Shown here: positions 9,880 through 47,480 of the stretch, piece by piece
Numbering within the stretch: position 1 is the first letter of the stretch
Layout of the letters: every line of letters begins with the position of its first letter
Source of the DNA: Acidobacteriota bacterium
GTDB lineage: Bacteria > Actinomycetota > Acidimicrobiia > Spongiisociales > UBA5794
Direction: 5' to 3'
Assembly: GCA_022562055.1 (NCBI GenBank)
Contig: JADFQA010000009.1
Coordinates: 17,255-81,254 of the forward strand
DNA length: 64,000 nucleotides
Program-made: the position numbers and the translations under genes
Notes under the pieces: generated by a model
Told to the model about the DNA's origin: nothing
Seen by the model: only the letters and a program-made list of their open reading frames with translations
The model's database searches: none

Positions 9880-10629
9880 ATGAAAAAGATTGTTCTTGCG
9901 GTACTGGTAGGCGTCCTTGCCACCGTCCTAGTCGGTCCGGCGAGTGCTTCGGTCACTCAAGGGGACTGCGCCGGCAGCGCGACCATCCTTGGTGTCACCT
10001 ACACACCAGACAACGACACCCCTGGCAACCCAATTTTGTTGCCGAATCGGGACGGTGTTGTCATTCCCTACGAAGGCGGAGTGGGGTTTGTAAACACCAA
10101 CCACTCAGGTGAGATCGGTGTAACCGTTGCCGGTATCAACATCAAGGTCGACGATTGGGCGGGGACCAACGAGGACGACGATCGACAGACGATGTCCGAG
10201 TACCGACTCGACGAGTTCTACCAACTGCTCGACGACCGGGTTCCGGGTGGACGGGTTCCCGGATTATGGCGTCTCTGGGTGACTCACAATGCCGACGGTG
10301 GCAACTGTACAGCGTTTGCGCTCGTGAAAATCGAAGGCAACCCACTGGCAACACCGCTCGGTGCCGCAGTGCTGATCATGACCGTCATCGCTCTCGGTCT
10401 CATGTTTCGTAGTCTCTACGTCAAAGTGATCAGCAAAACGGTCAAACATCGGATCGCTCTTGGAGTCATTGCAGGGCTGTTCCTCGGACTCGGCATCGGG
10501 ATTCTCACGTTTATGTATGGATTCCGAACGCTTGACACCACAGTTGTCTTCATCTTTCCGCTCATCGCGGCGATTGTCGGATTCCTGCTCGCAAAGTGGG
10601 GTCCCATGGGGCGACCGGTCAACTTGTAA
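9880..10629 (+). CDS. Hypothetical exported, membrane-anchored protein
   Basis: GGAGG RBS with ATG at 9880. Signal peptide MKKIVLAVLVGVLATVLVGPASA, an extracellular domain with 2 Cys, and three C-terminal hydrophobic helices. Confidence 0.8.
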   Translation: MKKIVLAVLVGVLATVLVGPASASVTQGDCAGSATILGVTYTPDNDTPGNPILLPNRDGVVIPYEGGVGFVNTNHSGEIGVTVAGINIKVDDWAGTNEDDDRQTMSEYRLDEFYQLLDDRVPGGRVPGLWRLWVTHNADGGNCTAFALVKIEGNPLATPLGAAVLIMTVIALGLMFRSLYVKVISKTVKHRIALGVIAGLFLGLGIGILTFMYGFRTLDTTVVFIFPLIAAIVGFLLAKWGPMGRPVNL

Positions 10630-10683
10630 CGGACTCTGGCGCTGCTCACGACCGTATACGGTCGTGGCTAGCGCCAGAGTCCG
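10630..10683. terminator. 54-nt near-perfect hairpin between convergent genes
   Basis: CGGACTCTGGCGCT / AGCGCCAGAGTCCG outer stem plus an inner palindrome CACGACCGTATACGGTCGTG. Confidence 0.75.
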
Positions 10684-10695
10684 AGAACCGGCCGG

Positions 10696-12744
10696 CTACT
10701 GGTACCAGCGGACGAAAGACTTCCGTTCCAAGGTATCAAGAGAGGACTGCAGTAGGCCGCCTTCAGAGATGGTGTACACCACCTCACCGATAACGACGCT
10801 ACGCCGGACTTGTGACTCCCAATCCCACGGGTTGTGGTGATCGTTCGTGTTCGAGATGCGCTTCACTTCACGGATCCCATCCTTGGTGATCTCGAGCCCG
10901 ATAGCGCCAACAAAACCTTGTTCAGTGCCGGTTTCGTCATTCCACGAGTATGTTGTGATGGGGAGGACAACAAGGCCAGTCGGTTCCCAGTACAAGAAGG
11001 CACGGTGGTCCCACTCAGCCTCAGAGTTGCCGTTCTCGATCGTGTACTTGTCGATACGCTTTGGATTGGCAGGGTCAGAGACATCGAACAACGACACCTG
11101 AGTCCCAAGCACTCTGCCGTTGTCCGTCGCTGCCTGGCCGACACCGATCAAGAGATCGTCCGAGATGGGGTGCAGATAGGCTGAGTAGCCGGGGATCTTT
11201 AGCTCCCCTACGACTTTCGGGTCGGTGGGGTCTGACAGGTCGAGTGTGTACAGCGGGTCGGTCTGGCGGAAGGTGACGACATAACCGACGTCACCGATGA
11301 ATCGGACTGCGAAGATGCGCTCAGACTTGCCGATTCCGCCAACCTGGCCGATTGTCTCTAGGGTGCCGTCCTTCTCCGTGAGAACGGTGATGAAGCTCTC
11401 GGACTCTTGATCGCCACGCCAGTCGGGCTGTGAAGTCGAAGCGACTCGCAGATCGCCGTTGTACTCGGACATTGACCATTGCGACAACATGTAACCCTTG
11501 ACAGATCCGCTGCCGCGGTACGTGACGCTGTCGGGGTCTGAGATGTCGAATTTGTGAATGTCGGTTGTGGCCTCGTTGACCACGGTGGCAATCGCGTTCG
11601 AATCTTCAATGGCCTGCCAGTCGACCCAACGGTTGGTGGCGATGTAGAGAGCATCGGTCGACGCGTACACCGTTTCACCGCTGGAAAGCACGCCCGTGGC
11701 GGCCTTCACGTCGAGTCCTTTGGATATGTCGATCGTGACTATCGAGATCATGTCGAGACCGGCGAAGTCTGCGGGTGCGTTGGCCTCGTTGCAGGACAGC
11801 AGAGCTCCTTGCTTTTTGACGGTGACCCGTCCGTTGTCTGAGACGGTTTCGAGCACGTAGTACGGGACCCAGTTTTCGATCGTCGAATCTTCAATGATCT
11901 GCTTGTTGGCTTCCGTTGCTTGACGTTCGGCGCGCAGACCAGAACCTTCCGGCTGGACAAACTGGAGGCCGACGGGGGACGAGTTGACGACAAGTCGGAC
12001 CGTGTCACCGATCATGCGGGCGCTGACATAGCGGCCGTCCATCTCGAGCTGCCTTGTCACTCGCATGTTGTCTCCGTCTGAGATATCGACCTCGACGATC
12101 GAGAGGGTGCTTGAGAAGCCGCCCCCGTACCCCTGGCCCGACCGCGATGCGAAGTTGCTTGTGTAGACGTCTCCATAACCCTGTGCGATGAGCAACACCG
12201 TGTCGCCCGAAAGCAGCATGTCCTGGATGTACAGGTCGCCGAGCCTCAGCGTGCCCCGCAGTTGCGGGCTAGCACCGGTTACGTCGACGTATCGCAGCTC
12301 GCCGTTGGTGAGGACCAGCAACCGCCTGCCGTCGGTCTTTACGATGTCGGGTTCGTCGACACCCTTCTCCTGTACGTTGGTCGTCGAAAAGGCTGGTGTC
12401 GATTTCGCACCGCTCTCGTACGCTATCGACGCTGCCGCGGTGGTTGGCACGACGCGCTGAGCGGAAGAGTCCAATTCGGCGGCCAAGATTCCGTCTTCCA
12501 AGATGGCCGGGAAGCCCCACCCGTATCCGAAACCGTACGGACCCACGATGTCTTTGGCGTGAGATTTCACGTACGACAAGAAATCGTCGCATGCGTTGAA
12601 GCTTTGCAGCGAGAATTCATGGATTGCGGGGTCGATCCTGGGGAACTCGCGTTGGCCGACCGTTGGTTCGGATGAGGTCTGAGTGCAGGTAGCGGCGATC
12701 AAACTGAGTGCCGTGGCTGCAAGAAGGATTCTGGTTGTTTTCAT
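10696..12744 (-). CDS. Beta-propeller domain lipoprotein (Beta_propel / COG4880-like)
   Basis: Lipobox-like LIAATC; STTNVQEKGVDEPDIVKTDG, MSEYNGDLRVA, ERIFAVRF, VVTFRQTDPL, GELKIPGYSAYLHP and WDHRAF. Confidence 0.88.
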   Translation of the reverse strand: MKTTRILLAATALSLIAATCTQTSSEPTVGQREFPRIDPAIHEFSLQSFNACDDFLSYVKSHAKDIVGPYGFGYGWGFPAILEDGILAAELDSSAQRVVPTTAAASIAYESGAKSTPAFSTTNVQEKGVDEPDIVKTDGRRLLVLTNGELRYVDVTGASPQLRGTLRLGDLYIQDMLLSGDTVLLIAQGYGDVYTSNFASRSGQGYGGGFSSTLSIVEVDISDGDNMRVTRQLEMDGRYVSARMIGDTVRLVVNSSPVGLQFVQPEGSGLRAERQATEANKQIIEDSTIENWVPYYVLETVSDNGRVTVKKQGALLSCNEANAPADFAGLDMISIVTIDISKGLDVKAATGVLSSGETVYASTDALYIATNRWVDWQAIEDSNAIATVVNEATTDIHKFDISDPDSVTYRGSGSVKGYMLSQWSMSEYNGDLRVASTSQPDWRGDQESESFITVLTEKDGTLETIGQVGGIGKSERIFAVRFIGDVGYVVTFRQTDPLYTLDLSDPTDPKVVGELKIPGYSAYLHPISDDLLIGVGQAATDNGRVLGTQVSLFDVSDPANPKRIDKYTIENGNSEAEWDHRAFLYWEPTGLVVLPITTYSWNDETGTEQGFVGAIGLEITKDGIREVKRISNTNDHHNPWDWESQVRRSVVIGEVVYTISEGGLLQSSLDTLERKSFVRWYQ

Positions 12745-35955: not shown

Positions 35956-35973
35956 TTGTGAAAAATATCACAA
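35956..35973. promoter_or_regulatory. Rex operator overlapping the rex start codon
   Basis: TTGTGAAAAATATCACAA has 1 mismatch to TTGTGAA-N4-TTCACAA and contains the GTG start. Confidence 0.75.
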
Positions 35974-36593
35974 TCCCGTCCGCAACGATTTCACGTCTCC
36001 CGGTGTACCTGAGGTCGTTGGGTGACATCGCAACCGCGCAGACCACGATCAGCTCGATCCAGCTTGCGGAGATAGCGGGTGTTAACGCGGCTCAGGTGCG
36101 CAAAGACCTCTCGAATCTAGGAGCTACTGGTGTTCGAGGCGTCGGGTACAGCGTCGCGGATCTACGCCTGGACCTTCGCGAGGCTCTCGGCCTCACCCAC
36201 GGCTACCACGTGGCGATCGTCGGCGCAGGCAACCTTGGAGCTGCCCTTGCCAACTACGGCGGTTTCGCCTCCTGGGGATTCGAGGTCGGCGCGGTATTCG
36301 ACACCGACCCGCACAAAATCGGCGAGACCATCGGCGACCTCACAATCGACGACCTTGTCCATCTGGGAACCATTGTGAAGCAGCGTGGCATTGAGATTGG
36401 CATCGTCGCGACACCCGCTAGTGGAGCGCAAGATGTTGTGAATCGTTTCGTGGACGCGGGTATCCGCTCCATACTCAACTTCGCGCCCGCGGTAGTGCAC
36501 GTCCCCGCCGACGTCGCGTTGCGCAGAGTCGATCTCTCAACCGAGCTCCAGATCCTCACCTACCACCTACATCATCGCAAGGCCGCCGGGTAG
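35958..36593 (+). CDS. rex: Redox-sensing transcriptional repressor Rex
   Basis: IPSATISRLPVYLR, QVRKDLS..G..G.RG.GY, IVGAGNLG and ILNFAP. Confidence 0.97.
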   Translation: MKNITIPSATISRLPVYLRSLGDIATAQTTISSIQLAEIAGVNAAQVRKDLSNLGATGVRGVGYSVADLRLDLREALGLTHGYHVAIVGAGNLGAALANYGGFASWGFEVGAVFDTDPHKIGETIGDLTIDDLVHLGTIVKQRGIEIGIVATPASGAQDVVNRFVDAGIRSILNFAPAVVHVPADVALRRVDLSTELQILTYHLHHRKAAG

Positions 36594-36711
36594 ACGCCGC
36601 GCAGGCGAACACATCTTCTGAGATCTACCAAAGTCAGAATCCCGGATCGATTTGGCGGCCTGCTGAGTTGCGCCGGACAGCCGCTCAGACCTCCGCTACT
36701 CGGGGACCCGA

Positions 36712-37212
36712 CTACAGGTCGGACTCTTTTTCGTACTTGTCTAGTGCAACGATGAACATGACGAACAGGATCAGCGATGCAACGGTGAGTCCGATGGCGG
36801 GGATACGAACCTCAATGGCGTTGAGACCCTGGACGCTTGAGGGTCGAATGCCTCGCGGTGCGTAAACGACGAAAAGCGTAGACCCGATGGTCAACCAGCC
36901 AAACAATGCTGCGCCAGACACGAGAAGGGCCAGGCGTTTCCCAAGATTGGTGTAGATCAGCGCAACGCCGCTGCCGATGAAGGCGAGCAGTGCCGATCCG
37001 GCGATCAACAATCCGCGGGCGGCGACAGAGAATCTGGTGAGCTCCCCGGTTTCGTCGATCTGTTTGAAAATGTTGGTGTATGCGTCTCCGAGAACGCCCC
37101 GTGCCGCCGGGATGAAGGCAGTGAACGCGACGACAATCGCAAAGACTCCGAGTTTTTCCAGACCTGATAGTCCGGACTCGTCACGATGGATGCGATGGAG
37201 TAGCGTTTTCAC
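36712..37212 (-). CDS. Membrane protein, last gene of the cytochrome bc operon, with a Flp-prepilin-like N-terminus
   Basis: GTG at 37212 overlaps the stop of the cytochrome c gene. RDESG|LSGLE followed by a hydrophobic helix and three further TM segments. Confidence 0.75.
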   Translation of the reverse strand: MKTLLHRIHRDESGLSGLEKLGVFAIVVAFTAFIPAARGVLGDAYTNIFKQIDETGELTRFSVAARGLLIAGSALLAFIGSGVALIYTNLGKRLALLVSGAALFGWLTIGSTLFVVYAPRGIRPSSVQGLNAIEVRIPAIGLTVASLILFVMFIVALDKYEKESDL

Positions 37213-38807
37213 ATCGAGTCCTCGTAGATGGCGATGAGTTCGATGTCTCGTTGGCTGAGCATCTTTCCGAAGGCTGGCATACGCCCGGTGCCAATTCCGT
37301 TGATCCCGTAGGACTGGCCGAATGTGGTGCCTTTGATGATGAGTTTCAGATGATCTTCGAACCGAACAAACTGCGAATCGGCTCTGCCATCGAGCAACGA
37401 CGGACCCCACGCTCCCGACCCCGCGGGTTGTTCGTATGCAACACCTGCGGAGTATCCACCGGTGTGGCAACGGGCGCAGTATGCGTTGTACAGGCCGACA
37501 GCCCGGGTTGCCTCGTCCAATGAAAGCCCGGTGTTCGCGCTGACCTCGCTGAAGTCCGTGAACCACTTTCGATCCTTGGCAGACTGGACGAGGAAGCCCA
37601 TGGACGTGTTGGCAGTCAGCAGGAACGCTTCATTGCGTTCGGTCATGACCTGAAGGTTGAGGTGGCGTGCGCCGACCAAGGTGAGAAACTCGTCTACCTC
37701 GTCAAGGTCGCTCTCGAGCATCCCCGAGGCGTCAGCCATCGAGAATGGGTTGTCGGTTTCGAGGGCGAGCAAGAGGGCTTCGGTCTCGACAAACGAGACG
37801 ACAAACTCTCCATCGACCTTCTTGACGAGTCGTGTTTGCATCTGCTCGAACGCCAATTCGGACATGTCGTTCAGCGTGGTCTCGGCTGCATCGGTAATGC
37901 CGTCGCGATCCGTGTCGACTCCAGACGTCCCACATACTCGGTCGACGAGAGCTGCGGATTTACTCGTGCACGTTCCGTCACCACCGAGCAGGGCGCTGAG
38001 CTGCTCCGGGAAGGTTTCGATCGGCTTAAACCGCGACGGAGCGTCGGCGATGTCGTCGATAACCGCTTGCTGGATGAGGATCAATTCGGCGACCTTTTCG
38101 TCACCCGTCTCGAGGCGCTTGATAGCGGAGTCAACTGCAGGCTCGATCTTGCGCAACACGTCGCCCTGGGTAACACCAAAGTCCTCAATGTAGGCCATGA
38201 CTTGAAGAACCTCTTGAAACGTCATGGCGCCACCGCCGGGTATGCCGTTCGCAGGCATCGGTGTTCCCTGGCGCCCGTGGTTGATGATCCCCGAGATTTC
38301 TTCCTCGTCGAAAAGGAAAAAGAGGTCGTTTAGCGAGGGGGCGCTCCACGAGGTGCTGAGTCCCGATCGGACCTCGACGAAGCTTGCCCCGCCGCCGACA
38401 CCATCCGCTCCGTGACAATCGATGCAGGAGAACTGGTTGAACCATCTCTCTCCCTCATCGATGTCTTTTTCGTGGATTGCTTCCGCAGCGCCGATCTGGC
38501 GGTCGGCTTCGTTGAGGTAGTAGATGGGTACGACCAGAGCTAACACGGCCGCGGCGACCATTGCCGAGCGCAACACAGTGTTGAGCTGGACGTTCTCGAG
38601 ATCGCCGTCAGACAGATATGGCTGGAGGTTCTTTGCGGGCTCTTCGCCGCCTGACTGGGGCCGGGCGGCAATCCACAGCCACGCAATCCACATCACGAAC
38701 ACCGCGGTGGCGACGATCAGAACTATCGAACCAATGCCGACGTTTGGTGGTCCCGTGCCGGTTGGACGCGCTTCGACGAAGAAATACAACGTTTGTAAGT
38801 CAATCAA
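37209..38807 (-). CDS. Membrane-anchored di-heme c-type cytochrome (QcrC-like) with a large inter-heme insertion
   Basis: CIDCH...GTPMP and CARCH...GRMP (His/Met ligation), two N-terminal TM helices. Confidence 0.9.
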   Translation of the reverse strand: MIDLQTLYFFVEARPTGTGPPNVGIGSIVLIVATAVFVMWIAWLWIAARPQSGGEEPAKNLQPYLSDGDLENVQLNTVLRSAMVAAAVLALVVPIYYLNEADRQIGAAEAIHEKDIDEGERWFNQFSCIDCHGADGVGGGASFVEVRSGLSTSWSAPSLNDLFFLFDEEEISGIINHGRQGTPMPANGIPGGGAMTFQEVLQVMAYIEDFGVTQGDVLRKIEPAVDSAIKRLETGDEKVAELILIQQAVIDDIADAPSRFKPIETFPEQLSALLGGDGTCTSKSAALVDRVCGTSGVDTDRDGITDAAETTLNDMSELAFEQMQTRLVKKVDGEFVVSFVETEALLLALETDNPFSMADASGMLESDLDEVDEFLTLVGARHLNLQVMTERNEAFLLTANTSMGFLVQSAKDRKWFTDFSEVSANTGLSLDEATRAVGLYNAYCARCHTGGYSAGVAYEQPAGSGAWGPSLLDGRADSQFVRFEDHLKLIIKGTTFGQSYGINGIGTGRMPAFGKMLSQRDIELIAIYEDSM

Positions 38808-39670
38808 TTGCAGGCCGGTCCTTGCGGGTAGGCGACGCTCTTGACTTTGGCACGCGAAGTCTCGAACACTGTGCCAGTATGGATGATGAGGTTGTTTTCC
38901 TCGTCGACCGTGACCATGAACCGGTCCATGTTGCGAGGCGCCGGACCTTCAATGTATTCGCCGTGCAAGTTGTACTTCGACCCGTGACATGGGCACTCGA
39001 ATCCCTGCGACGGCAGACACTCAGGTACTCGGCACCCTAGGTGAGGACACCGGTGCCAGATCGCCATGATGCCCGGTTCGGCACCGGCACCAACGATCAC
39101 GCTGTCCGCGATGTCGGCGAGAATCGACGCGGATACATCTCCACGGAATGGCACAATCCACGCTTGCGCGGCAGGGATAGGCTTCGGCTTGATCGTGCCA
39201 TCGGCCTGAATGACCTCCGTCCGGAGATCGTCGATGTTGCCGGCTGAGATCGGTGAGCCAAATCCGCCTTTGACTTTTGGCCAAAGAAACGCAAGGTACG
39301 CAAGGCCCTGTGTAGCGAGAAATGTGCCGAAGAAACCGAGGATGGCGCGGTTGAAAAACATCCGCCGGGTCGCACCGTAGTCCTCTTCGGATACCACCTC
39401 GCGCTCCGTAAGCGGATCGGCGATCGGCCCTGCATCCTCAACAGCTTCGGGGACGAGGACCTCGATCGAATCAGACTCAGCGCTAGGCGCGGAGAGCTTT
39501 CGCGCCTCGGCCTTACGAGCCCTGCGGTCCGCTTTTGCAGCGCGCCTGTCGAACGATCCTGTTATCGGTCCTGCGTCGGGGCCGCGTCCGACAGCGATGC
39601 TCGCAACAGCAGCGACAACGAGGACAGTTACGAGTCCAATACCGATAATGAAGGCGGTTTGAGCGTCCAT
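38804..39670 (-). CDS. Rieske 2Fe-2S subunit of a menaquinol:cytochrome c reductase (QcrA/PetC-like)
   Basis: CPHLGC and CPCHGSKY; TRRMFFNR Tat-like anchor. Confidence 0.95.
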   Translation of the reverse strand: MDAQTAFIIGIGLVTVLVVAAVASIAVGRGPDAGPITGSFDRRAAKADRRARKAEARKLSAPSAESDSIEVLVPEAVEDAGPIADPLTEREVVSEEDYGATRRMFFNRAILGFFGTFLATQGLAYLAFLWPKVKGGFGSPISAGNIDDLRTEVIQADGTIKPKPIPAAQAWIVPFRGDVSASILADIADSVIVGAGAEPGIMAIWHRCPHLGCRVPECLPSQGFECPCHGSKYNLHGEYIEGPAPRNMDRFMVTVDEENNLIIHTGTVFETSRAKVKSVAYPQGPACN

Positions 39671-40506
39671 CAGAAATCGAAGAATATCCCGTCTACCCAG
39701 GGGAATGTGAAGTTAAACCCTGGGCCTCGGAAAAACGAGCCGTACGTCGTGAGCACCGCGGCTCCCATGAAGAAGAATGAAAAGATCATGATTGCTAGCT
39801 TGCGGTCAGACGGCCGAACTGATGGATTGCGGTCAATGTAGGGAATGAATGCCAGCGCGGCCAAACCGTATCCAGGCAGGATAATGCCGGCAACCATTGG
39901 ATCGAAGTAAGACAGCAATTCCTGCAAGCCGAGGAAGTACCACGGCGCCTTGGACGGGTTCGGTTGCTGGTTGAAGTTCGCAAACTCGAGCAGCGGCGCA
40001 TCGACGTAGATCGAGAAAACGAACAGTCCTGCGGTGACGACCAGCAGTGCTACAAACTCGATGGCGACCAGGTGCGGCCAAGTGTTCACTTTGTCCGTTG
40101 GCTCCCGCTTTGTCTGCTGGATTGCGCCAGCCCGGACGACTGTCAGAAGCCGTTGTGTGCGGACACCTTCTGGAATGGTCGGCATGGGTGCAGGAGTGCC
40201 GGCAGCGACCGGCGCCGACGCGGTCTGCGCTGCTTGGGGGGCGCCGCTCGTCGTTGCCGCCACTGGGACGCCGGAGATTTTCGCTCTTGCCGTCATTGAG
40301 CGTTGGAGGAGATCCTCAGGGACACCGAGTTCCGCTGATTCTGTGGAGATATCGCGTGCCGCGCCCACGGCTTCCGCCGTACTAGCGGAGGACGATGGGG
40401 GCGCCTCGCCTTTCATTTCAGCGAGAATCTCATCGACCGGACGGCCTGTTGCTTTGGCTTTTGCCTCGGCCGAGCGACGAAGAAGGTGTTCTGGAAGTCC
40501 TGCCAT
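39670..40506 (-). CDS. Cytochrome b6 subunit IV / PetD-like, with a repeated N-terminal extension
   Basis: ATG at 40506. WPHL..IEF, NPSKAPWYFLGLQELL and PYIDRNP..RP..R; three TM helices. Confidence 0.9.
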   Translation of the reverse strand: MAGLPEHLLRRSAEAKAKATGRPVDEILAEMKGEAPPSSSASTAEAVGAARDISTESAELGVPEDLLQRSMTARAKISGVPVAATTSGAPQAAQTASAPVAAGTPAPMPTIPEGVRTQRLLTVVRAGAIQQTKREPTDKVNTWPHLVAIEFVALLVVTAGLFVFSIYVDAPLLEFANFNQQPNPSKAPWYFLGLQELLSYFDPMVAGIILPGYGLAALAFIPYIDRNPSVRPSDRKLAIMIFSFFFMGAAVLTTYGSFFRGPGFNFTFPWVDGIFFDF

Positions 40507-40514
40507 CGTATTCC

Positions 40515-41288
40515 CTAGAGCGGCCCTGAGATGCCGCCGTCCTTGCGGACTCGCCAGAAGTGCACGGACATGAAGATGACGATGATAAATGGTAAGAACA
40601 GGACATGCAGTACATACCACCGCAGCAGTGTGTCTGGTGTGATTTGTGTGCCACCGATCAGCGCAAAGCTCACTTGCTCGCCGATGACGGGAGCATAGCT
40701 GCCCATGTTTGAACCGACGGTCACCGCCCACACTGCAAGCTGATCCCACGGCAGCAAGTAGCCCGTGAAGGAGAGCAGCAGTGTAAGAAGCAACAGCACG
40801 ATACCGACAACCCAGTTGAACTCGCGTGGTGGTTTGTAGGCGCCGTGATAAAACACACGGGCCATGTGGAGGAACACGGTCAGCACCATTGCATGCGCGC
40901 CCCACCGGTGCATATTCCTCACAACCTGACCAAACGTAACGTCGGTCGCCAACGCCTGGATGTCGAGATACGCCTGCGGCGACGTTGGTCGGTAATAGAA
41001 CATCAAGAAGATGCCCGTAATGGTGAGCAGGATAAAGAGGAAGAAACTCAGCCCGCCAAGACACAACGTATACGACAATCGGACGCCGTGGCGCTTCACC
41101 TTCACCGGATGCAGGTGATACAAAACGTTGTTCATGATCACGTATGACCGGTTGCGAGGGGTGTCGGCGTAACCATCGCGGAACGGCGAGCCGGGACGAA
41201 AAATACTCGACCACGCTGCAGAAGACCTGACGTGTTGTCCGGTCTCGGCAAGTTTCGACATCAACCCGTTTTTGCTTTTGTCGCTCAC
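40515..41288 (-). CDS. Cytochrome b6-type N-terminal cytochrome b (PetB-like)
   Basis: CLGG (heme ci site), [26 protein letters not shown], and LHV...HFW with 14 residues between the His ligands. Confidence 0.95.
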
Positions 41289-41366
41289 CTACGCTCCTCG
41301 TCTACATTCTTGGTGCGGTGCCGTGGGCTGCCGCCGAGTGCCTTGCGCACTCGCGCACTCGCGTAC

Positions 41367-41810
41367 TTACCAACGGATGCCATACATGTACCCGTTCTTG
41401 AAATCGCGCTGCCCAGTGTCGTGCTCCCACGGCGTTGCTTCAAATCCGTCGGTTTTGTCGGCTACGGAACCGCTGAATTTTCCGAGGCTGATAACCCCCG
41501 TGGGGCAGCGATCGATGCACAGAGCGCACCGTGTGCAGACATCTTCGTCGACGATAAAGAATCCGCCGTTTTCCTTGTTCTCGTCCGGATGATCCACGTT
41601 GACACCTTCTGAAATGGCGTCAAGCGAAAGGAAGTGGATGCACTTCCACGGGCAAATGTCAACGCATCCCTCGCAGATAATGCATTCCGACTCGTCGATG
41701 TGGAGAAACGTTTTCGGTTTGACGGCCGCCACCAGGTATGCGCCGTCGACCAACGCGAGCTGGTAGTCGTCTCGGATCGGTGGGAGGTCTTGCCACACGT
41801 CATTCGCCAC
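41367..41810 (-). CDS. 2x[4Fe-4S] ferredoxin
   Basis: CIICEGCVDICP and CTRCALCIDRCP. Confidence 0.95.
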   Translation of the reverse strand: MANDVWQDLPPIRDDYQLALVDGAYLVAAVKPKTFLHIDESECIICEGCVDICPWKCIHFLSLDAISEGVNVDHPDENKENGGFFIVDEDVCTRCALCIDRCPTGVISLGKFSGSVADKTDGFEATPWEHDTGQRDFKNGYMYGIRW

Positions 41811-41813
41811 GGG

Positions 41814-42422
41814 CTACCGCTCCTGCTTGACAGTTGGCCTGCCGAACGCCGAAATCGGCGTTACGGGGTCTGATTCGATGCGGTTCTTTTCGTAGGTTTG
41901 CCACTTCACCATGGCGACTGGGATGCCGATCAGAAGGTTTCCCGTCATGCCGGCTACGAGGATCTCTTTGAGGACCTCGTACGAGATCGAAATATCGTTG
42001 TTGAGTGCCAGCACGCGTGGAATCGTGAACAAGGTTCTTTGCGATGACCAATCGAGATCGGTTTGGGCAATGGTCAATAGTTGGTTCGGGATTACGCCAA
42101 AGAGCAGCATCACCATGGATGTGAATACGAATGCCCCGATGGCTGCTCGCGCCCAAGTCAACTGTCGGCGGTACAAGAATGCCAGTGTTATTCCCCCAAG
42201 CAGCATGAATATCCCGGTTAGGGAGATGGTTTGTGCCAGTGTGCGAATGGGCAAACCGCGCGGGATCGAGGGGTACAGCTCGCGACCGACGGAGTCCGTT
42301 GCAGGGAGGCCTACGAAATGCGCAAGCACCGCACCGCCGATAGCAGTGAAAACCCCAAGGACCGCGACAGCGATACCGATTCGGTAGAACGTGCGCAGTT
42401 GCTTTTCGTCCAGGGCCTTCAC
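41814..42422 (-). CDS. Hypothetical membrane protein, first gene of the bc operon
   Basis: Three to four hydrophobic helices, 3 nt upstream of the ferredoxin gene. Confidence 0.75.
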   Translation of the reverse strand: MKALDEKQLRTFYRIGIAVAVLGVFTAIGGAVLAHFVGLPATDSVGRELYPSIPRGLPIRTLAQTISLTGIFMLLGGITLAFLYRRQLTWARAAIGAFVFTSMVMLLFGVIPNQLLTIAQTDLDWSSQRTLFTIPRVLALNNDISISYEVLKEILVAGMTGNLLIGIPVAMVKWQTYEKNRIESDPVTPISAFGRPTVKQER

Positions 42423-42650
42423 CTCGTTGTCCGTCTCGTGCGAGACGCCTCATCCTGTCAGTACCGTCTAGGTCGGTACGCGCATTCTACGCATGTGAAG
42501 TCGTCTGTGAAATCCATGCCCTTTTGACCATCGTCTCGAAGGATATGACAATGCACTGGGTGCGAGGTCTACTCAGAGGTCACGCGACTCAGATGCCGCA
42601 CTCGCAAAGACTAGGCTGGCGTGGCGAAGACCTACCCAGGTTGAGTATGT

Positions 42651-42710
42651 GCTTTGGCCGAGCATTGAAAGCGATACGAGGCTTTGGCCGAGCATTGAAA
42701 GCGATACGAG
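42651..42710 (+). repeat. Perfect 30-bp tandem duplication
   Basis: GCTTTGGCCGAGCATTGAAAGCGATACGAG occurs twice with no spacer. Confidence 0.95.
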
Positions 42711-42722
42711 GAAACGAAAACG

Positions 42723-44687
42723 GTGACCGCCGATACCAGTCTTACCGATGACGCTTCTGCGTCCTCATCAGACGTACCCGACGCTTTCATAGATCACGCC
42801 AACGTGCGCGTGTTTGCAAAGCTTGCGGTGCTGTTTCTCGTCGTCTCCACAGTTCTCGGTTCCATCGCGGCTGTTTCTCTCGTGAATCCCACCGTTGCCG
42901 ATATCTCTAGGTTTCTCTCGTATGGCCGGTTGTACCCGGTGGCGACAAACTTGTTCATTAACGGTTGGTTGACTCTCGGGTTCCTCGCGGTCGTTATGTA
43001 TCTCGTGCCCAGACTGCTCAACAGATCTCTTGCAGCCGCTGGTTCCGCGGTAGTCGGCGCCGGACTGTATGCCGCTGGTGTCATCGCTGCGGCTGGGTTC
43101 GTCACGGTGCAAGGCGTTGACGGGAACGTCGGTTTTGAGGCGCCCTGGTATATCGACTTTGTCACCTTGATCGGCGTAATCCTGATTTCACGAGCCGTCG
43201 CGTTAACCGTCCGCAAGCGTCCGAAATCGGGCGACGGTGGCGCTGCACCTATTCCGCCGGTGGTGCTGTTTCTTACGGCAGGGGTCATTTGGTTGACCCT
43301 TGCGTTGGCAGTCGCACTGCCGTTTGGTGGTGGTCCGACGACTGGTCTTGGTGGGGTTCTCCAGAACATATTTGCCCGGGGCGCCATCGTGGGCCTGTGG
43401 TTAACGTCGGCGGGTTTTGGTGCCGTCTACTACATATCTCACCGCATCACCGGCGCCCCGAGCCGTGCCACTGACCGAAGCGTCTTGGCTGCCTTCTGGT
43501 CTGTCGCTGTCGTCATGCCGTTTTACGGGGCGACGCAATTGGCACACTCGGTCATGCCTGACTGGTTGGAGACGGTGGGGGCCATGTTTGCAATTGGTGC
43601 GCTATTGCCCGCGCTCATTCTAGCGAACGACCTCGCCAGGACAGTGCGATCGCGCATCGACAACGTGACCGATGCTGTCACGCTGAAGTGGCTTTCTTTC
43701 GGCACCGCTAGCTTCGTTGCTTTCATTGCACTCACGGTTCTCGGAACAATTCGTTCGGTTGCGGCAGTCGCGCAGTTGACGACGTGGACGTCGGGTATCG
43801 AGTTCCTCGCACTCGGCGGTGCCTTCACCGCTTGGTTGGTCGCCTTTTACCGGCACGCCGGTGTTGAGTTTTCGGGTAGACATGTCGACCGTGCAACTTC
43901 TGAGTGGCATCTCCGCCTTACCGTGCTCGGCGTGGTTGGTTTCGTTCTGGCTTCCATGTCCGCCGGCGTCGTTTCGGGATATGCCTGGATCGGCGCAGCG
44001 AATTCGCCCAACGTCGGAGTGACCGGCGTTGACTTTGCGCTGGCTTCGCAGCCGACGTTATTTGCGCTGGCCACCCGTGGCGCCTCCCTGGGCGTTTTCG
44101 CGTTAGGCGCTATCGTGTTCGCAGCGTCGCTGCTGGGTTCTGCGTCGCCGACCACTGACACGCCCGAGGTCGACTCCCTCGATGACGGTCGCTCCGTGCT
44201 CTCCGGCTCTCCGGTGGGATTCCCCAAGCTTGTCGGCGCCAGTGTCGGTCTGTTCATCGTGGCGATGTCGGTGGTGTGGCTCATTCCGTCGACCGAAGTG
44301 AACCCGACCGAAGGGACCATCCTTGGCGACACCACCAGAATGGAATCAGACGATGTGTTTGCGGCGGGTAAGGCCATCTATCTGCAAGAAGGATGTGTCT
44401 ACTGTCACACGCAGCAGGTCCGTCCAATTGTTACCGACGTCGATCTTGGCGCGGTGAGCGCGTACGGCGATTACGTGAACGAAGATGTTGTGCCCCTCGG
44501 TGTCGCCCGCCTCGGTCCCGATTTGATGCACGCCGGCACTGGCGAGGACACCGGGTCCGTTGTTTTCCTGCGTAGTTTTCTTGAAGATCCTCGGGCGGAG
44601 CGTTCTTGGTCCACAATGCCGAGCTATGCGCACCTCTCAGACGCTGAGATCGAAGCGCTTGCGATTTATCTGACCGGGCTTAAGTGA
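42723..44687 (+). CDS. Degenerate cbb3-type subunit I (CcoN-like, no heme/CuB His) fused to a CcoO-like cytochrome c
   Basis: CcoN-collinear segments SYGRLYPVATN, EAPWYID, YGATQLAHS.MPDWL and TTWTSGIEF. C-terminal GKAIYLQEGCVYCHTQQVRP, RLGPDL and STMPSY. Confidence 0.85.
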   Translation: MTADTSLTDDASASSSDVPDAFIDHANVRVFAKLAVLFLVVSTVLGSIAAVSLVNPTVADISRFLSYGRLYPVATNLFINGWLTLGFLAVVMYLVPRLLNRSLAAAGSAVVGAGLYAAGVIAAAGFVTVQGVDGNVGFEAPWYIDFVTLIGVILISRAVALTVRKRPKSGDGGAAPIPPVVLFLTAGVIWLTLALAVALPFGGGPTTGLGGVLQNIFARGAIVGLWLTSAGFGAVYYISHRITGAPSRATDRSVLAAFWSVAVVMPFYGATQLAHSVMPDWLETVGAMFAIGALLPALILANDLARTVRSRIDNVTDAVTLKWLSFGTASFVAFIALTVLGTIRSVAAVAQLTTWTSGIEFLALGGAFTAWLVAFYRHAGVEFSGRHVDRATSEWHLRLTVLGVVGFVLASMSAGVVSGYAWIGAANSPNVGVTGVDFALASQPTLFALATRGASLGVFALGAIVFAASLLGSASPTTDTPEVDSLDDGRSVLSGSPVGFPKLVGASVGLFIVAMSVVWLIPSTEVNPTEGTILGDTTRMESDDVFAAGKAIYLQEGCVYCHTQQVRPIVTDVDLGAVSAYGDYVNEDVVPLGVARLGPDLMHAGTGEDTGSVVFLRSFLEDPRAERSWSTMPSYAHLSDAEIEALAIYLTGLK

Positions 44688-44694
44688 GTTAAGA

Positions 44695-45540
44695 ATGGAC
44701 CAATCGCTCAACAAGATTTCGGACGAGTACGGCTACCCCGCTGACCTGGTTTCAAGAGCCGCCGCCGCGCGAGCCCAGGTGGAGGGAATCAGCCGCGAAG
44801 CCGTCGCCGCCCGCTGGGCGGGGGAAGAAGTGCCCGAAGGGGGAGCGGCACCTGCGGCCGCACCCGCAGCCGTCGCAACCACACAGGACGATGCCGCAAC
44901 TCCGGCCGGTCTTGATGTCGAAGTGCTCGAAGCCGTTGGGCACGATGAACCTGACCTGCCCGACTCGCCGTCTGTAGTAGATGAGCCAAGTCCGGTAGGC
45001 GGGTTCGTGAGATGGCTCGCCATTGTTGCGTTCATCATTCCTGTCATTGCTCTCACGTACGCCTTTGTCGCGCCCGATGGTCCGGCCTGCGGAGCAGCCG
45101 GTCAACTCGACGTCGATCCTGCGACTGGGAACGCGGTCGGGTGCGACGGCAAGGCCTACGGTGCCGGTGCCGTCAATTTCTTTGCGCTCGGCCAGGACGT
45201 GTACACCGCACAGTGCGTTGCGTGTCACGCTGCCGACGGCAGCGGCGGGGTTGGACCTGCATTCTTCGGTGGGTCAATCGTCGAGACGTTCCCGGCGAAT
45301 ATTTGTGCGGACCATCTTGAGTGGATCACGCTCGGGTCCTCTGGGTGGCAGAACGAGCGTGGTAATACGTACGGTGCCTCCGCCAAACCAGTGCTCGGAT
45401 TTTCCGGTGTGCCGATGCCAGGCTTTAGTAAGCTGACAGCCGACGAGCTTTCCGCGGTAGCTATATATCAACGTGTCGCATTTGGTGGCGAGGAAATCGC
45501 TATCGCAGAAGCTTCCTGCCTCGTCTCCGCAGCCAGTTAG
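44695..45540 (+). CDS. Membrane-anchored monoheme cytochrome c with a cytoplasmic N-terminal extension
   Basis: One TM helix, CVACH and GVPMPGF; four further Cys outside the heme motif. Confidence 0.9.
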   Translation: MDQSLNKISDEYGYPADLVSRAAAARAQVEGISREAVAARWAGEEVPEGGAAPAAAPAAVATTQDDAATPAGLDVEVLEAVGHDEPDLPDSPSVVDEPSPVGGFVRWLAIVAFIIPVIALTYAFVAPDGPACGAAGQLDVDPATGNAVGCDGKAYGAGAVNFFALGQDVYTAQCVACHAADGSGGVGPAFFGGSIVETFPANICADHLEWITLGSSGWQNERGNTYGASAKPVLGFSGVPMPGFSKLTADELSAVAIYQRVAFGGEEIAIAEASCLVSAAS

Positions 45541-45597
45541 CGATCCCAATTCGTACCGAGGTAAGTTCCGGCGTCCGTAACCCGTAGGATCATCGTC

Positions 45598-46833
45598 ATG
45601 CCTTCTCTAGATGTTCTCGTAGTCGGTGGTGGACCCGGTGGCTGTGCGGCCGGATACTGGTTAGCCCGCCAGGGTGTTTCCGTAAGCGTCATCGAGAAGA
45701 AGACGTATCCGCGAGCAAAGACGTGCGGGGACGGTCTCACCCCGCGGGCGATCAAGCAGCTTATCGACATGGGGTTCGACTTCGACATCCCTGAGATTCA
45801 TAAGATCAAAGGACTCCGTGCATACGCCGGCGACCTGGTTCTTGAGATGCCGTGGCCTGAACGAACGACGTACCCGAACTGGGGTGCGTCGATACGCCGA
45901 GCCGACTTGGACGGTGCGGTTGCCGAGCTTGCTCGTAGTCAGGGCGCCGAGGTCCGAGAAGGCACGGAGGCAGTTGCAGTTATCGAGGACTGGAGACTGA
46001 TCGCCGTCGACCTCAAAACAGCCGACGGTTCTGTCGAACGAGTTTTTCCCAAGATTGTCATCATTGCTGATGGATCGTTGAGTCGTTTCGGCCGGGCGCT
46101 TGCGGTCCAGCGTCGCCGAGACTACCCGTACGCCCTCGCGGTCCGCACGTATTACCGATCGCCGTATTCGACGAATGAGTTCATCGAAAGCCAACTCGAT
46201 ATCCGCGACAAGGATGGTCGCTCTCTGCCCGGTTACGGGTGGGTGTTCCCGCTCGGTGACGGCACGATCAACGTCGGTGTCGGTGTGCTCTCGACGTTCA
46301 AGGGATGGAAAGAGGTCAACACTTCGCACATGCTCGAGTCGTATGTTGCTCGCCTGCCCGAGCATTGGCAGGTTTCGGAGAATGATGTCCTCCAGCCGCC
46401 GACTGGCGGCAAGCTGCCGATGGCGATGTCGGTCGGTCCGAAGGTTGGTGCCAACTGGCTCGTCATTGGCGATGCTGCCGGCGCGGTCAATCCGTTCAAC
46501 GGCGAAGGCATCGACTACGCATACGAGACAGGTCGCATGGCTGCTGATGTGATTGTCGAGGCGCTAGCTGCGAACGATCTTGCGTTGTTGCACCGATACT
46601 CGCAAGTACTCGACGACGAGTACGCCGCCTACTACAAGGTCGCGCGGATATTTGTCAACGTCATCGGTAATCCATCGGTGATGAAGGCGCTGACCCAGGT
46701 CGGGTTGCGGTCGCGCCCGCTCATGGAGTGGACGTTGAAGGTCATGGCGAACCTGCTCGAGCCCGAGGAGTACGGCATGTCAGAGCGCGTGTACAAAGCG
46801 ATCGAAAAGGTCGTCCGTTTCGTCCCCAAGTAG
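45598..46833 (+). CDS. Geranylgeranyl reductase family protein (MenJ-like menaquinone reductase)
   Basis: VVGGGPGG, KTCGDGLTPRA, GYGWVFP, GDAAG.VNPFNGEGI.YA.ETG; located near nuoA. Confidence 0.88.
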   Translation: MPSLDVLVVGGGPGGCAAGYWLARQGVSVSVIEKKTYPRAKTCGDGLTPRAIKQLIDMGFDFDIPEIHKIKGLRAYAGDLVLEMPWPERTTYPNWGASIRRADLDGAVAELARSQGAEVREGTEAVAVIEDWRLIAVDLKTADGSVERVFPKIVIIADGSLSRFGRALAVQRRRDYPYALAVRTYYRSPYSTNEFIESQLDIRDKDGRSLPGYGWVFPLGDGTINVGVGVLSTFKGWKEVNTSHMLESYVARLPEHWQVSENDVLQPPTGGKLPMAMSVGPKVGANWLVIGDAAGAVNPFNGEGIDYAYETGRMAADVIVEALAANDLALLHRYSQVLDDEYAAYYKVARIFVNVIGNPSVMKALTQVGLRSRPLMEWTLKVMANLLEPEEYGMSERVYKAIEKVVRFVPK

Positions 46834-46859
46834 CCGCCGTTTTCGGATTCTGGCGCTCT

Positions 46860-47480
46860 TTACGCCCGTATACGGGCGTGGTTAGCGCCAGAATCCATTT
46901 GTCGCGCTGGGGCGCCGATAAGCGCTCGGATACCCGGGCCGAGGCCGTCGAACACGGTGATGTCGTTGCGAATCTCAGCGACGAGAAGCATGCCTTCGGT
47001 CAGGGCGAGCACGGCGTCTGCTGCTGCTGCTGACGAGTCTTGCTCGGGGATTTCGCCGGCCGCAATAGCGTCGTCGATTGCTCCCTTGAACAGCTCGCTC
47101 ATGCGAGCGAGCATTTCCGCAGCAGCGTCCTGAAGACCTGGGTGGAGGCCGGTGGCCTCGCTCCCCACGCTGCCGAATGGGCATCCGTACGCCCGGTCCC
47201 ATCCCTCTTGCATCGTCTTTACCGACTCGGCATATCGGTCGAATCGTTCGAGCGGCGGGAGATCGCTAGAGAAAGCCGACCCATAGATCCGTTTTGAAGA
47301 CTCTTCCCAGTCATGGTCCAGAACTGCAAGTCCGAGCTCTTCCTTCGTCTTGAACCAGTAGTAGAAGCTGCCCTTGGGTATCCCGACTGCCTCACAAATG
47401 TCGCGGATGCTCACGGCCTCGTACGAACGGGCGCGGATTAGACGTGCGGCCGCTGAAACGATCTCTGGTTTTGTGGTCAT
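46860..47480 (-). CDS. TetR-family regulator (NemR/LmrA-like C-terminus)
   Basis: SIRDICEAVGIPKGSFYYWFKTKEEL and GCPFG. Confidence 0.92.
   Translation of the reverse strand: MTTKPEIVSAAARLIRARSYEAVSIRDICEAVGIPKGSFYYWFKTKEELGLAVLDHDWEESSKRIYGSAFSSDLPPLERFDRYAESVKTMQEGWDRAYGCPFGSVGSEATGLHPGLQDAAAEMLARMSELFKGAIDDAIAAGEIPEQDSSAAAADAVLALTEGMLLVAEIRNDITVFDGLGPGIRALIGAPARQMDSGANHARIRA

What the first reader, a model, noticed from the sequence alone, without database searches (positions are those of the whole stretch)
42723..44687. cbb3 subunit I homologue missing all six metal-binding histidines yet kept intact and fused to a functional-looking cytochrome c
By manual alignment to CcoN: GRLRPLHTN becomes GRLYPVATN (low-spin heme His lost), WWYGHNAVG becomes IFARGAIVG (CuB His lost), WAGPHHL becomes FYGATQL (two CuB His lost), and DWTIGHVH becomes TWTSGIEF (heme b3 and b His lost). 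The 12-helix frame is uninterrupted, and the CcoO part retains CVYCH, GPDL and the axial-Met MPSY. Selective loss of ligands without frame decay argues for a repurposed pseudo-enzyme rather than a pseudogene, for example a scaffold, an ion or proton conduit, or a quinone-binding anchor for the cytochrome.
Basis: partly seen in the sequence, partly recalled or inferred. Interest (0 to 1): 0.9.

Follow-up and report, generated by a model that had tools for sequence, protein, structure and literature searches.

The report
Cofactor-less cbb3 oxidase relic carrying haem c
This intact, selected gene encodes a cbb3-type oxidase subunit that has lost every residue holding its haems and copper but keeps a c-haem domain. 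It always sits beside the complex III genes of Acidimicrobiia, so it is probably an electron-relay scaffold and not the oxygen reductase that databases call it.

Summary
ORF 42723-44687 (+) encodes a 654-aa CcoN-CcoO fusion. phmmer against solved cbb3 structures, MAFFT alignments and an AlphaFold model (TM-score 0.85 to CcoN chains 3MK7/9G6B) all show the CcoN fold. All six His ligands and the cross-linked Tyr are replaced. The CxxCH, GPDL and axial-Met motifs of the haem-c domain are conserved across the family.

It is not a pseudogene. It belongs to a well-separated His-less clade of 64 representatives. That clade is found in 125 of 301 sampled Acidimicrobiia genomes and in some other Actinomycetota classes. 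dN/dS of the His-less domain is about 0.08-0.10. The gene is kept even in ~1-Mb streamlined genomes.

In nearly every complete locus examined it lies divergent from the orf202-ferredoxin-b6-subunit IV-Rieske-dihaem c operon. That operon holds this genome's only cytochrome b gene. A membrane-anchored monohaem cytochrome c follows it. The only real oxidase in the genome is caa3, and ccoS and ccoH are absent.

Best reading (inferred, about 50%): a redox-dead cbb3 core kept as a membrane platform that positions c-haems between b6c and caa3. I found no paper describing it. Public annotation calls it a cbb3 oxidase.

The parts
42723..44687 (+). pCcoNO: a 654-aa fusion of a His-less CcoN-like 12-helix domain with a CcoO-like monohaem cytochrome c domain
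   Evidence: ORF and translation. Pfam COX1 and FixO above cut-off. AF2 and Foldseek match to CcoN.
42795..44147 (+). N-domain (residues 25-475): CcoN fold with all six metal-ligand His, Tyr251 and Glu323 replaced. The sites are A74, R219/G220, M265, T271, Q272 and I359/E360/F361.
   Evidence: Alignments. dN/dS 0.08-0.10. Conservation is highest on the outer (P-side) face.
44148..44342 (+). Poorly conserved linker plus 13th transmembrane helix (residues 500-525), equivalent to the CcoO membrane anchor
   Evidence: AF2 secondary structure. Low conservation of the linker.
44343..44684 (+). O-domain (residues 541-654): CcoO-like haem-c domain with C558xxCH562 (44394-44408), GPDL (from 44514) and axial M632 (44616-44618)
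   Evidence: FixO match. CcoO chains of 6xkw and 3mk7. CxxCH, Q564, R567, G598 and P633 are invariant, and M632 is at least 90% conserved, in 31 family members.
44695..45540 (+). cytc281: membrane-anchored monohaem cytochrome c (CVACH at residue 174), in the operon position of CcoP, with an N-terminal cytoplasmic motif (44731-44829)
   Evidence: Pfam Cytochrom_C. CxxCH count. Follows pCcoN(O) in almost every locus. Motif HMM.
42651..42710 (+). Perfect 30-nt tandem duplication in the 5' leader, ending 12 nt before the GTG start
   Evidence: Also present in an independent 99%-identical metagenome contig, L104.
41814..42422 (-). orf202: conserved membrane protein with no family match, first gene of the divergent b6c operon
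   Evidence: Conserved position in all loci.
41367..41810 (-). 2x[4Fe-4S] ferredoxin
   Evidence: Pfam Fer4 families.
40515..41288 (-). Cytochrome b6 (split type; YTLCLGG Cys as in b6f/b6c), the only cytochrome b gene in the genome
   Evidence: Pfam Cytochrome_B 162 bits. Sequence. Single hit in the genome.
39670..40506 (-). Subunit IV with an N-terminal cytoplasmic extension carrying the shared motif twice (40399-40503 and 40261-40329)
   Evidence: Pfam Cytochrom_B_C. Motif HMM.
38804..39670 (-). Rieske iron-sulfur subunit
   Evidence: Pfam Rieske.
37209..38807 (-). Membrane-anchored dihaem cytochrome c (CIDCH at 128, CARCH at 444)
   Evidence: Pfam. CxxCH count.
36712..37212 (-). memX: conserved 166-aa membrane protein, last gene of the b6c operon
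   Evidence: Conserved in relatives.
45598..46833 (+). MenJ-like geranylgeranyl/menaquinone reductase, a frequent downstream neighbour
   Evidence: NCBIfam MenJ 295 bits, below the equivalog cut-off; GG-red-SF 240 bits, above cut-off. Synteny.

Best explanation
The gene descends from a cbb3-type (C-family) haem-copper oxidase whose catalytic subunit lost haem b, haem b3 and CuB long ago.

The 12-helix core is kept as a folded, cofactor-less membrane platform. On its outer face it holds its own c-haem (the CcoO domain). Probably it also holds the next gene's membrane-anchored cytochrome c, as CcoN holds CcoO and CcoP.

This 'pseudo-cbb3' works with the neighbouring menaquinol:cytochrome c oxidoreductase (the b6c complex). 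It acts as a fixed relay or adaptor that passes electrons from the dihaem cytochrome c of b6c towards the cytochrome c domain of the caa3 oxidase, which is the only O2 reductase in this genome. It does not reduce O2 or NO itself.

Shown: the fold, the ligand loss, retention of the haem-c motifs, purifying selection, clade-wide conservation, and synteny with b6c.

Inferred: that the haem c is attached, that the protein contacts b6c and/or caa3, and the direction of electron flow.
For: 1. Ligand loss with fold retention.

2. No alternative conserved His, Met, Cys or Lys appears in the N-domain that could ligate haem.

3. The haem-c motifs are conserved in 31 family members (CxxCH invariant, axial Met at least 90%). 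A cytochrome c maturation system is present in this genome. In one deep-branching member the maturation genes (thioredoxin-like gene, ResB, CcsA) lie in the same operon.

4. Purifying selection acts on the His-less domain itself. dN/dS is 0.096 at dS 0.68 and 0.076 in the window's subclade. This is higher than the other b6c-cluster genes in the same pairs, though orf202 matches it (0.12) or comes close (0.07).

5. The gene order is the same in nearly every complete locus examined: about 40 Acidimicrobiia loci plus two from other classes where it is looser (L010 and L102 are exceptions). The order is memX <- dihaem c <- Rieske <- subIV <- b6 <- Fdx <- orf202 | -> pCcoN(O) -> cyt c.

6. It is kept in ~1-Mb streamlined genomes.

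7. The genome has one cytochrome b, one real HCO (caa3, with a fused cytochrome c domain), and no FixS/CcoS or FixH/CcoH.

8. A cytoplasmic ~33-aa motif occurs in this genome only in b6c subunit IV (twice) and in cytc281. In split forms it also occurs in pCcoO. This links the products of the two divergent operons.

9. Conservation is concentrated on the outer face: outer loops 0.53 against inner loops 0.31.
Against: Other Acidimicrobiia orders have the same b6c operon, a cytc281 homologue and caa3 but no pCcoN. The protein is therefore not obligatory for b6c-to-caa3 electron transfer.

There is no expression, proteomic or structural evidence of a complex.

A single helix would be enough as an anchor, and CcoO has its own. 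The strong constraint on a 450-aa core therefore hints at something beyond anchoring.

The N-domain evolves faster than the core b6c subunits (31-38% against ~80% identity across families). The window's genus sits on a long branch.

The O-domain is modelled with only moderate confidence.
Confidence: 0.5

Rival explanations
1. It is simply a free membrane-anchored cytochrome c (a carrier like B. subtilis c550). The dead CcoN part serves only as a bulky anchor and makes no specific contact with b6c or caa3.
For: The haem-c motifs are invariant or nearly so. Monoderm bacteria use tethered cytochromes c (established knowledge). pCcoN is dispensable in sister orders.
Against: CcoO has its own anchor helix and is a separate protein in split forms. 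Even so, the 12-helix protein is kept under dN/dS of about 0.1 and in 1-Mb genomes. The fixed divergent arrangement with b6c argues for a specific partnership.
Confidence: 0.15
2. The cofactor-less core has gained a new activity of its own. Candidates are a proton or ion path gated by the redox state of the attached c-haem, or a menaquinol/menaquinone site that exchanges electrons directly with haem c.
For: Selection on the N-domain is as strong as on the haem domain. Charged residues replace the ligands: an Arg at the H207 site or the H257 site, plus Asp/Glu at the H345-347 site. This holds in 36 of 65 His-less sequences and about 28 of about 37 fused ones, and the Arg position swaps between helices. 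T228, Y236 and S253 align with residues that I recall belong to the cbb3 proton pathway (roles from memory). A MenJ-like gene is a frequent neighbour.
Against: The Arg/acid pair is absent from most split-form members. Other proton-pathway residues are lost: H243 -> A, Y317 -> F, E323 -> L. No quinone-site motif is known that could be tested. I had no model coordinates to check distances.
Confidence: 0.15
3. It is an assembly or stability factor for the b6c complex or for c-type cytochromes, not a component of the electron path.
For: Tight linkage to b6c. Cytochrome c maturation genes in the same operon in L118 and next to the gene in L119.
Against: An assembly factor would not need its own strictly conserved CxxCH and axial Met. 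b6c is assembled without it in sister orders.
Confidence: 0.07
4. It is still an O2 or NO reductase that binds its metals through unconventional ligands.
For: HCO families with altered ligands exist. gNOR has Asp for one His, and some enzymes use Met or Lys on the low-spin haem (PMC11214002).
Against: All six His, the Tyr and Glu323 are gone. No position in the N-domain conserves His, Met, Cys or Lys. The replacements vary among members: Ala, Ser, Gly or Phe at H60, for example. No CcoS or CcoH is present.
Confidence: 0.03
5. It is a decaying pseudogene or an annotation artefact.
For: Against a 99%-identical contig there are 6 non-synonymous and 2 synonymous differences. Eight changes are too few to interpret.
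Against: Intact frames occur in more than 100 genomes at 30-70% identity. dN/dS is 0.08-0.12. The AF2 fold is confident.
Confidence: 0.01

Closest known systems
cbb3-type cytochrome c oxidase CcoN/CcoO/CcoP (C-family haem-copper oxidase; P. stutzeri 3MK7 and 9G6B, P. aeruginosa 8SMR, R. capsulatus 6XKW)
   Same: The 12-helix subunit I fold (TM-score 0.84-0.86). A CcoO-type monohaem c domain with CxxCH, GPDL and MPSY. Gene order N-O-(cytochrome c). N-O fusion, as in Bacteroidota and Acidobacteriota enzymes.
   Different: No ligands for haem b, haem b3 or CuB, no cross-link Tyr, and no Glu323. The third subunit is monohaem, not dihaem. There is no ccoS or ccoH. The CcoO domain is shortened (FixO profile positions 23-147 of 219). 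The gene is fixed next to a b6c operon.
bc1-cbb3 and actinobacterial bcc-aa3 respiratory supercomplexes (6XKW, 8SMR; M. smegmatis 6ADQ, C. glutamicum 7QHM)
   Same: These are the work-alikes for the proposed role. Complex III is hard-wired to an oxidase through membrane-bound c-haems with no soluble carrier.
   Different: In those complexes the HCO partner is catalytic. Here the cbb3-like partner would be redox-dead in its core and would only pass electrons on. No physical association has been shown here.
gNOR and other recently defined HCO families (Murali et al., PNAS 2024, PMC11214002)
   Same: They are divergent HCO subunit I families with altered active sites, found by metagenomics.
   Different: [quoted passage not shown] This family has replaced all of them, and both haem b ligands as well.
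qNOR N-terminal NorC-like domain
   Same: It is a precedent within the superfamily for a cytochrome module kept after losing its haem (stated in PMC11214002).
   Different: The case is reversed. In qNOR the c-type domain lost its haem and the core stayed catalytic. Here the core lost its cofactors and the c-type domain kept its haem motif.
Ligand-less CcoN next to alternative complex III operons in Verrucomicrobiota
   Same: The same theme: a cofactor-less CcoN with intact c-haem partners, attached to a quinol:cytochrome c oxidoreductase operon.
   Different: A different phylum and a different partner complex (ACIII, not b6c). I did not verify it. In my tree, His-less and partial-ligand sequences outside the Acidimicrobiia clade do point to independent losses.

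Membership tests
Haem-copper oxidase superfamily (homology) | Subunit I sequence and fold (Pfam COX1; 12 transmembrane helices) | tested here: met
   COX1 77.9 bits against a cut-off of 34.8. AF2 pTM 0.86 and Foldseek TM-score 0.85 to CcoN.
cbb3-type cytochrome c oxidase (functional C-family enzyme) | Six His ligands of low-spin haem b, haem b3 and CuB | tested here: not met
   All six are replaced in phmmer and MAFFT alignments.
cbb3-type cytochrome c oxidase (functional C-family enzyme) | Cross-linked active-site Tyr (Y251 of P. stutzeri CcoN) | tested here: not met
   It aligns with M265.
cbb3-type cytochrome c oxidase (functional C-family enzyme) | CcoO monohaem subunit with CxxCH and axial Met | tested here: met
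   C558VYCH and M632PSY are present. The FixO profile scores 59.9 bits. CxxCH is invariant and M632 at least 90% conserved in the family.
cbb3-type cytochrome c oxidase (functional C-family enzyme) | Dihaem CcoP subunit | tested here: not met
   The downstream cytochrome has one CxxCH and only weak, generic cytochrome c matches.
cbb3-type cytochrome c oxidase (functional C-family enzyme) | Assembly genes ccoS (FixS) and ccoH (FixH) in the genome | tested here: not met
   No match in the 97%-complete genome. The Caulobacter control was detected.
cbb3-type cytochrome c oxidase (functional C-family enzyme) | NCBIfam ccoN or bifunctional I/II model reaches its cut-off | tested here: not met
   PRK14485 scores 129 bits against a cut-off of 1080. 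TIGR00780 scores 65.9 against 583.
Pseudogene | Broken frame or relaxed selection (dN/dS near 1) | tested here: not met
   The frame is intact. dN/dS is 0.08-0.12.
Respiratory III-IV type supercomplex component | Physical association with complex III and/or the terminal oxidase | not testable with these tools
   Only indirect support is available: synteny seen in nearly every complete locus and the shared cytoplasmic motif.

The most novel reading that the evidence does not exclude
The cofactor-less CcoN core, its c-haem domain and the partner cytochrome c form a new kind of respiratory subunit. It would physically bridge a b6c complex and a caa3 oxidase. Its conserved buried Arg-Glu/Asp pair and retained channel residues would give it an activity of its own, such as redox-linked proton or ion conduction or a quinone site. 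On this reading an oxidase scaffold has been re-used for a non-oxidase bioenergetic function, and related relics have arisen several times (C-type and A-type His-less paralogues in Actinomycetota).
Probability: 0.15. Interest if true: 0.88.

Novelty: new variant of a known kind. Interest (0 to 1): 0.72.

Why it matters
1. The metal-ligand histidines of haem-copper oxidases are treated as universally conserved. The 2024 survey of the superfamily regards the replacement of a single one as a first. A large, ancient, selected family that has lost all of them shows that the scaffold has a use independent of O2/NO chemistry.

2. Its fixed place beside the genome's only cytochrome b (b6c) operon, in this genome and in nearly every complete carrier locus examined, makes a concrete hypothesis directly testable: a fossil oxidase acting as a wire or adaptor in a supercomplex.

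3. Public databases name these proteins 'cbb3-type cytochrome c oxidase subunit I'. Genome-resolved studies list cbb3 oxidases for Actinobacteriota MAGs (for example PMC8357290; I did not check whether those are this family). Inferences of high-affinity, micro-oxic respiration in these abundant aquatic bacteria may therefore be wrong.

Tried and rejected
- dN/dS against the 99%-identical contig L104: only 8 differences, so uninformative.
- Rex operator search: there is no site in the divergent promoter. The one good site is at the rex gene itself, and the count over the whole window is at chance level.
- Rfam on 36000-47000: nothing.
- PDB sequence searches for cytc281 and orf202: only weak, generic or chance hits.
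- tblastn with the ResB and CcsA proteins of L118 against the own genome: no hit. Ccm-type assembly genes were found instead.
- Context of a partial-ligand homologue (P0164), to test the ACIII link reported in earlier scan notes: it is a stand-alone ccoNO-ccoP, not ACIII-linked.
- Eight literature searches found no description of a His-less CcoN family.
- The 'cryptic oxidase' and 'pseudogene' readings were considered and rejected on the evidence listed under the rival explanations.
Full report
**1. The observation**

ORF 42723-44687 (+) is an uninterrupted 654-codon frame with a GTG start. Pfam matches COX1 over residues 30-425 (77.9 bits, cut-off 34.8) and FixO/CcoO over residues 516-645 (59.9 bits, cut-off 29.6). 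The NCBIfam models for real cbb3 subunits fall far below their cut-offs, for example 129 bits against 1080 for the bifunctional I/II model.

phmmer against solved structures aligns residues 20-459 with P. stutzeri CcoN (9g6b_A, 3mk7_A). It puts the following at the ligand positions (residue numbers):

| cbb3 residue | This protein |
|---|---|
| H60 | A74 |
| H207 | R219 |
| Y251 (cross-linked Tyr) | M265 |
| H257 / H258 | T271 / Q272 |
| H345 / H347 | a gap / E360 |
| E323 | L337 |

MAFFT alignments with true CcoNO fusions give the same four motifs. They shift by one residue at two sites. No His falls at any ligand column in either alignment.

The C-terminal part keeps C558VYCH, GPDL and M632PSY and aligns with CcoO chains. 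An AF2 model built on 31 homologues (pTM 0.86) has 12 helices plus the CcoO anchor helix.

**2. A family, not an accident**

A search of 1.84 billion representatives gave 52 proteins at E < 1e-30. Among the full-length hits, 65 have no His at any of the six columns.

On a maximum-likelihood tree of the N-domain, 64 rows form one side of a branch with SH-aLRT 99. Of these, 62 have zero His at the six columns. The other side holds the canonical six-His enzymes and assorted partial-ligand forms. The clade contains a fused N-O subclade, which includes the window, and a split subclade in which pCcoN and pCcoO are separate genes.

Named genome records that carry the fused form are all Acidimicrobiia or Actinomycetota MAGs. 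In an even sample of the class, 125 of 301 genomes match the family profile:

- 14 of 17 genomes in the window's own family match.
- Most families of its order match.
- So do nearly 60 genomes of about 1 Mb (57 rows listed). In those, the protein has a single His in 468 residues.

Two further families outside the class also carry His-less members. Other Actinomycetota classes have canonical six-His relatives.

**3. Selection**

All values are dN/dS.

| Comparison | Whole gene | N-domain | O-domain | Neighbouring genes |
|---|---|---|---|---|
| L108 vs L110 (congeneric, dS 0.6-0.7, unsaturated) | 0.12 | 0.096 | 0.135 | cyt b6 0.044, dihaem c 0.089, orf202 0.12 |
| L132 vs L133 (window's own subclade, 83% identity) | 0.080 | 0.076 | 0.039 | - |
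| Window vs L133 (dS saturated) | about 0.10 | - | - | - |

The 99%-identical contig L104 differs at only 8 bases and is uninformative. The His-less domain is therefore under purifying selection. Its dN/dS is higher than that of the other b6c-cluster genes in the same pairs, apart from orf202, which matches it (0.12) or comes close (0.07).

**4. Context**

On the minus strand, divergent from the gene, lie these genes:

- orf202
- a 2x[4Fe-4S] ferredoxin
- a split cytochrome b6 with the YTLCLGG cysteine
- subunit IV
- Rieske
- a membrane-anchored dihaem cytochrome c
- a small membrane protein

Downstream on the plus strand are a membrane-anchored monohaem cytochrome c (cytc281) and a MenJ-like reductase.

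This arrangement is the same in nearly every complete Acidimicrobiia locus I examined, for both fused and split forms and in the 1-Mb genomes. L010 and L102 are exceptions. It is looser in the two out-of-class carriers. In one deep-branching member a thioredoxin-like gene, ResB and CcsA (cytochrome c maturation) lie between the two operons, co-oriented with pCcoNO.

The window's genome (2.93 Mb, 97% complete) has:

- one cytochrome b;
- one canonical HCO, a caa3 whose subunit II carries a C-terminal CTACH cytochrome c domain;
- Ccm-type maturation genes;
- no FixS/CcoS or FixH/CcoH, although the control genome with a real cbb3 was detected.

A ~33-residue cytoplasmic motif (consensus lG.PE.Ll.RSAEARAkA.G.sveEvLaeW.G) occurs in this genome only in subunit IV (twice) and in cytc281 (once). 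In split forms it also heads pCcoO. Its copy number reaches four in one relative. It ties the products of the two operons to a common cytoplasmic partner or to each other.

**5. What the N-domain keeps**

No position in the N-domain conserves His, Met, Cys or Lys. Haem binding through other ligands is therefore unlikely.

Conserved residues are largely those shared with real CcoN: Y67-G68-R69, P72, W82, E139, P141, Y236, F258-W259-S260, P279-D280-W281, T284, R344, T353, W355, G419 and W422. Conservation is higher on the outer side, taking the topology by homology to CcoN. Outer loops score 0.53 against 0.31 for inner loops, and outer helix halves 0.58 against 0.52 for inner halves. That is the side where CcoO and partner cytochromes sit.

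In place of the binuclear centre, most fused members carry an Arg plus an Asp or Glu. The Arg sits at either the H207 site or the H257 site. The acidic residue sits at the H345-347 site. In this protein these are R219 and E360. I read this as a buried ion pair filling the former metal site, with the Arg swapping helices.

**6. Explanation**

The best-supported reading is a redox-dead cbb3 core kept as a membrane platform for c-type haems. It would work with the adjacent b6c complex as a relay or adaptor towards caa3.

The main counter-evidence is that sister orders keep the same b6c operon, a cytc281 homologue and caa3 without it. It is therefore an accessory part and not an obligatory link.

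A 450-residue core under strong constraint, kept in 1-Mb genomes, also suggests more than anchoring. A function of the core itself, such as ion or proton conduction or quinone binding, stays open at about 15%. A cryptic oxidase and a pseudogene are both effectively excluded.

**7. Comparison and novelty**

By descent the protein is a member of the HCO superfamily and derives from the C-family. It fails every functional criterion of a cbb3 oxidase except the CcoO haem domain (see the membership table).

[quoted passage not shown] Eight full-text searches found no description of a His-less CcoN.

Public records name family members 'cbb3-type cytochrome c oxidase subunit I', for example MBK5266846.1 from an Acidimicrobiia bacterium and JGI entries. 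Metabolic reconstructions may inherit this label. PMC8357290 lists caa3- and cbb3-type oxidases for several of its MAGs, in a section I took to be the Actinobacteriota one. I did not check whether those genes are this family.

Earlier notes of this scan report the same Acidimicrobiia family in other genomes, and an analogous ligand-less CcoN beside ACIII in Verrucomicrobiota. I re-derived the former independently. I could not verify the latter.

**8. Verdict**

The feature is real and strongly conserved, and as far as I can tell it is undescribed. It is a cofactor-less derivative of a well-known enzyme, with a testable role in the respiratory chain and an immediate consequence for annotation. 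I rate it a new variant of a known kind, with interest 0.72.

Noticed in passing
L120:8142-9806 (-), from G019; similar hits in G008 and G014: In Acidimicrobiia orders that lack pCcoN, a 554-aa A-family COX1 paralogue lies between the caa3 operon and ctaB/ctaA. It also has all six His ligands replaced: MHG -> SR, GHPEVY -> SQPQVY, WAHHMF -> WAQTAF, AHFHY -> GQFAA. It is 28% identical to the neighbouring real COX1. This looks like a second, independent cofactor-less HCO relic.
   Followed up: partly
window 40399-40503 and 40261-40329 (-), 44731-44829 (+); L099:9224-10045 and 10267-11211; L105:8474-11590: A cytoplasmic ~33-aa motif (PE.Ll.RSAEARAkA.G..veEvLaeW.G) is shared by b6c subunit IV (twice) and cytc281, and nothing else in the genome carries it. 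It occurs one to four times in relatives. In one 1-Mb genome the first ~75 residues of pCcoO and of the next cytochrome c are identical, which suggests gene conversion. No Pfam family covers the motif.
   Followed up: partly
window 42651-42710: A perfect 30-nt tandem duplication (GCTTTGGCCGAGCATTGAAAGCGATACGAG, two copies) lies in the 5' leader and ends 12 nt before the GTG start. It is present in an independent 99%-identical contig (L104) but not in the 69% relative L005.
   Followed up: partly
L129:6779-8239 (-); proteins P0197, P0189, P0164, P0153, P0183: CcoN homologues with partial ligand sets exist. Several keep only the two low-spin haem b histidines (H60 and H347) and have lost the haem b3-CuB ligands. 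A group with pattern HHHHHM (P0096, P0120, P0135) has Met for H347. These may be intermediates or separate degenerate families.
   Followed up: no
window 35956-35973: A Rex operator-like palindrome (TTGTGAAAAATATCACAA, one mismatch to the consensus) overlaps the start of the rex gene (35958-36593). This suggests autoregulation. No such site lies in the b6c/pCcoNO divergent promoter.
   Followed up: partly
window 36712-42422 (-): This genome's only cytochrome b complex is a split b6/subunit IV type with the haem-ci-type Cys (YTLCLGG). It has a dicluster ferredoxin gene and two conserved membrane proteins of unknown family (orf202, memX) in the operon. This differs from the fused QcrB of the classical actinobacterial bcc complex, and it is conserved across the whole class.
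   Followed up: partly
L086:7319-8164 (own genome, contig C63); L120:6703-7542: A conserved ~280-aa multi-helix membrane protein with no family match lies immediately upstream of caa3 subunit II, both in this genome and in a distant Acidimicrobiia order.
   Followed up: no
tree: The window's genus-level subclade (P0001, P0006-P0008) sits on a very long stem branch (1.24 substitutions per site). The window's protein departs from otherwise near-invariant family residues such as G123 -> A, G130 -> Q and W182 -> L. This points to an episode of accelerated change followed by renewed constraint.
   Followed up: no
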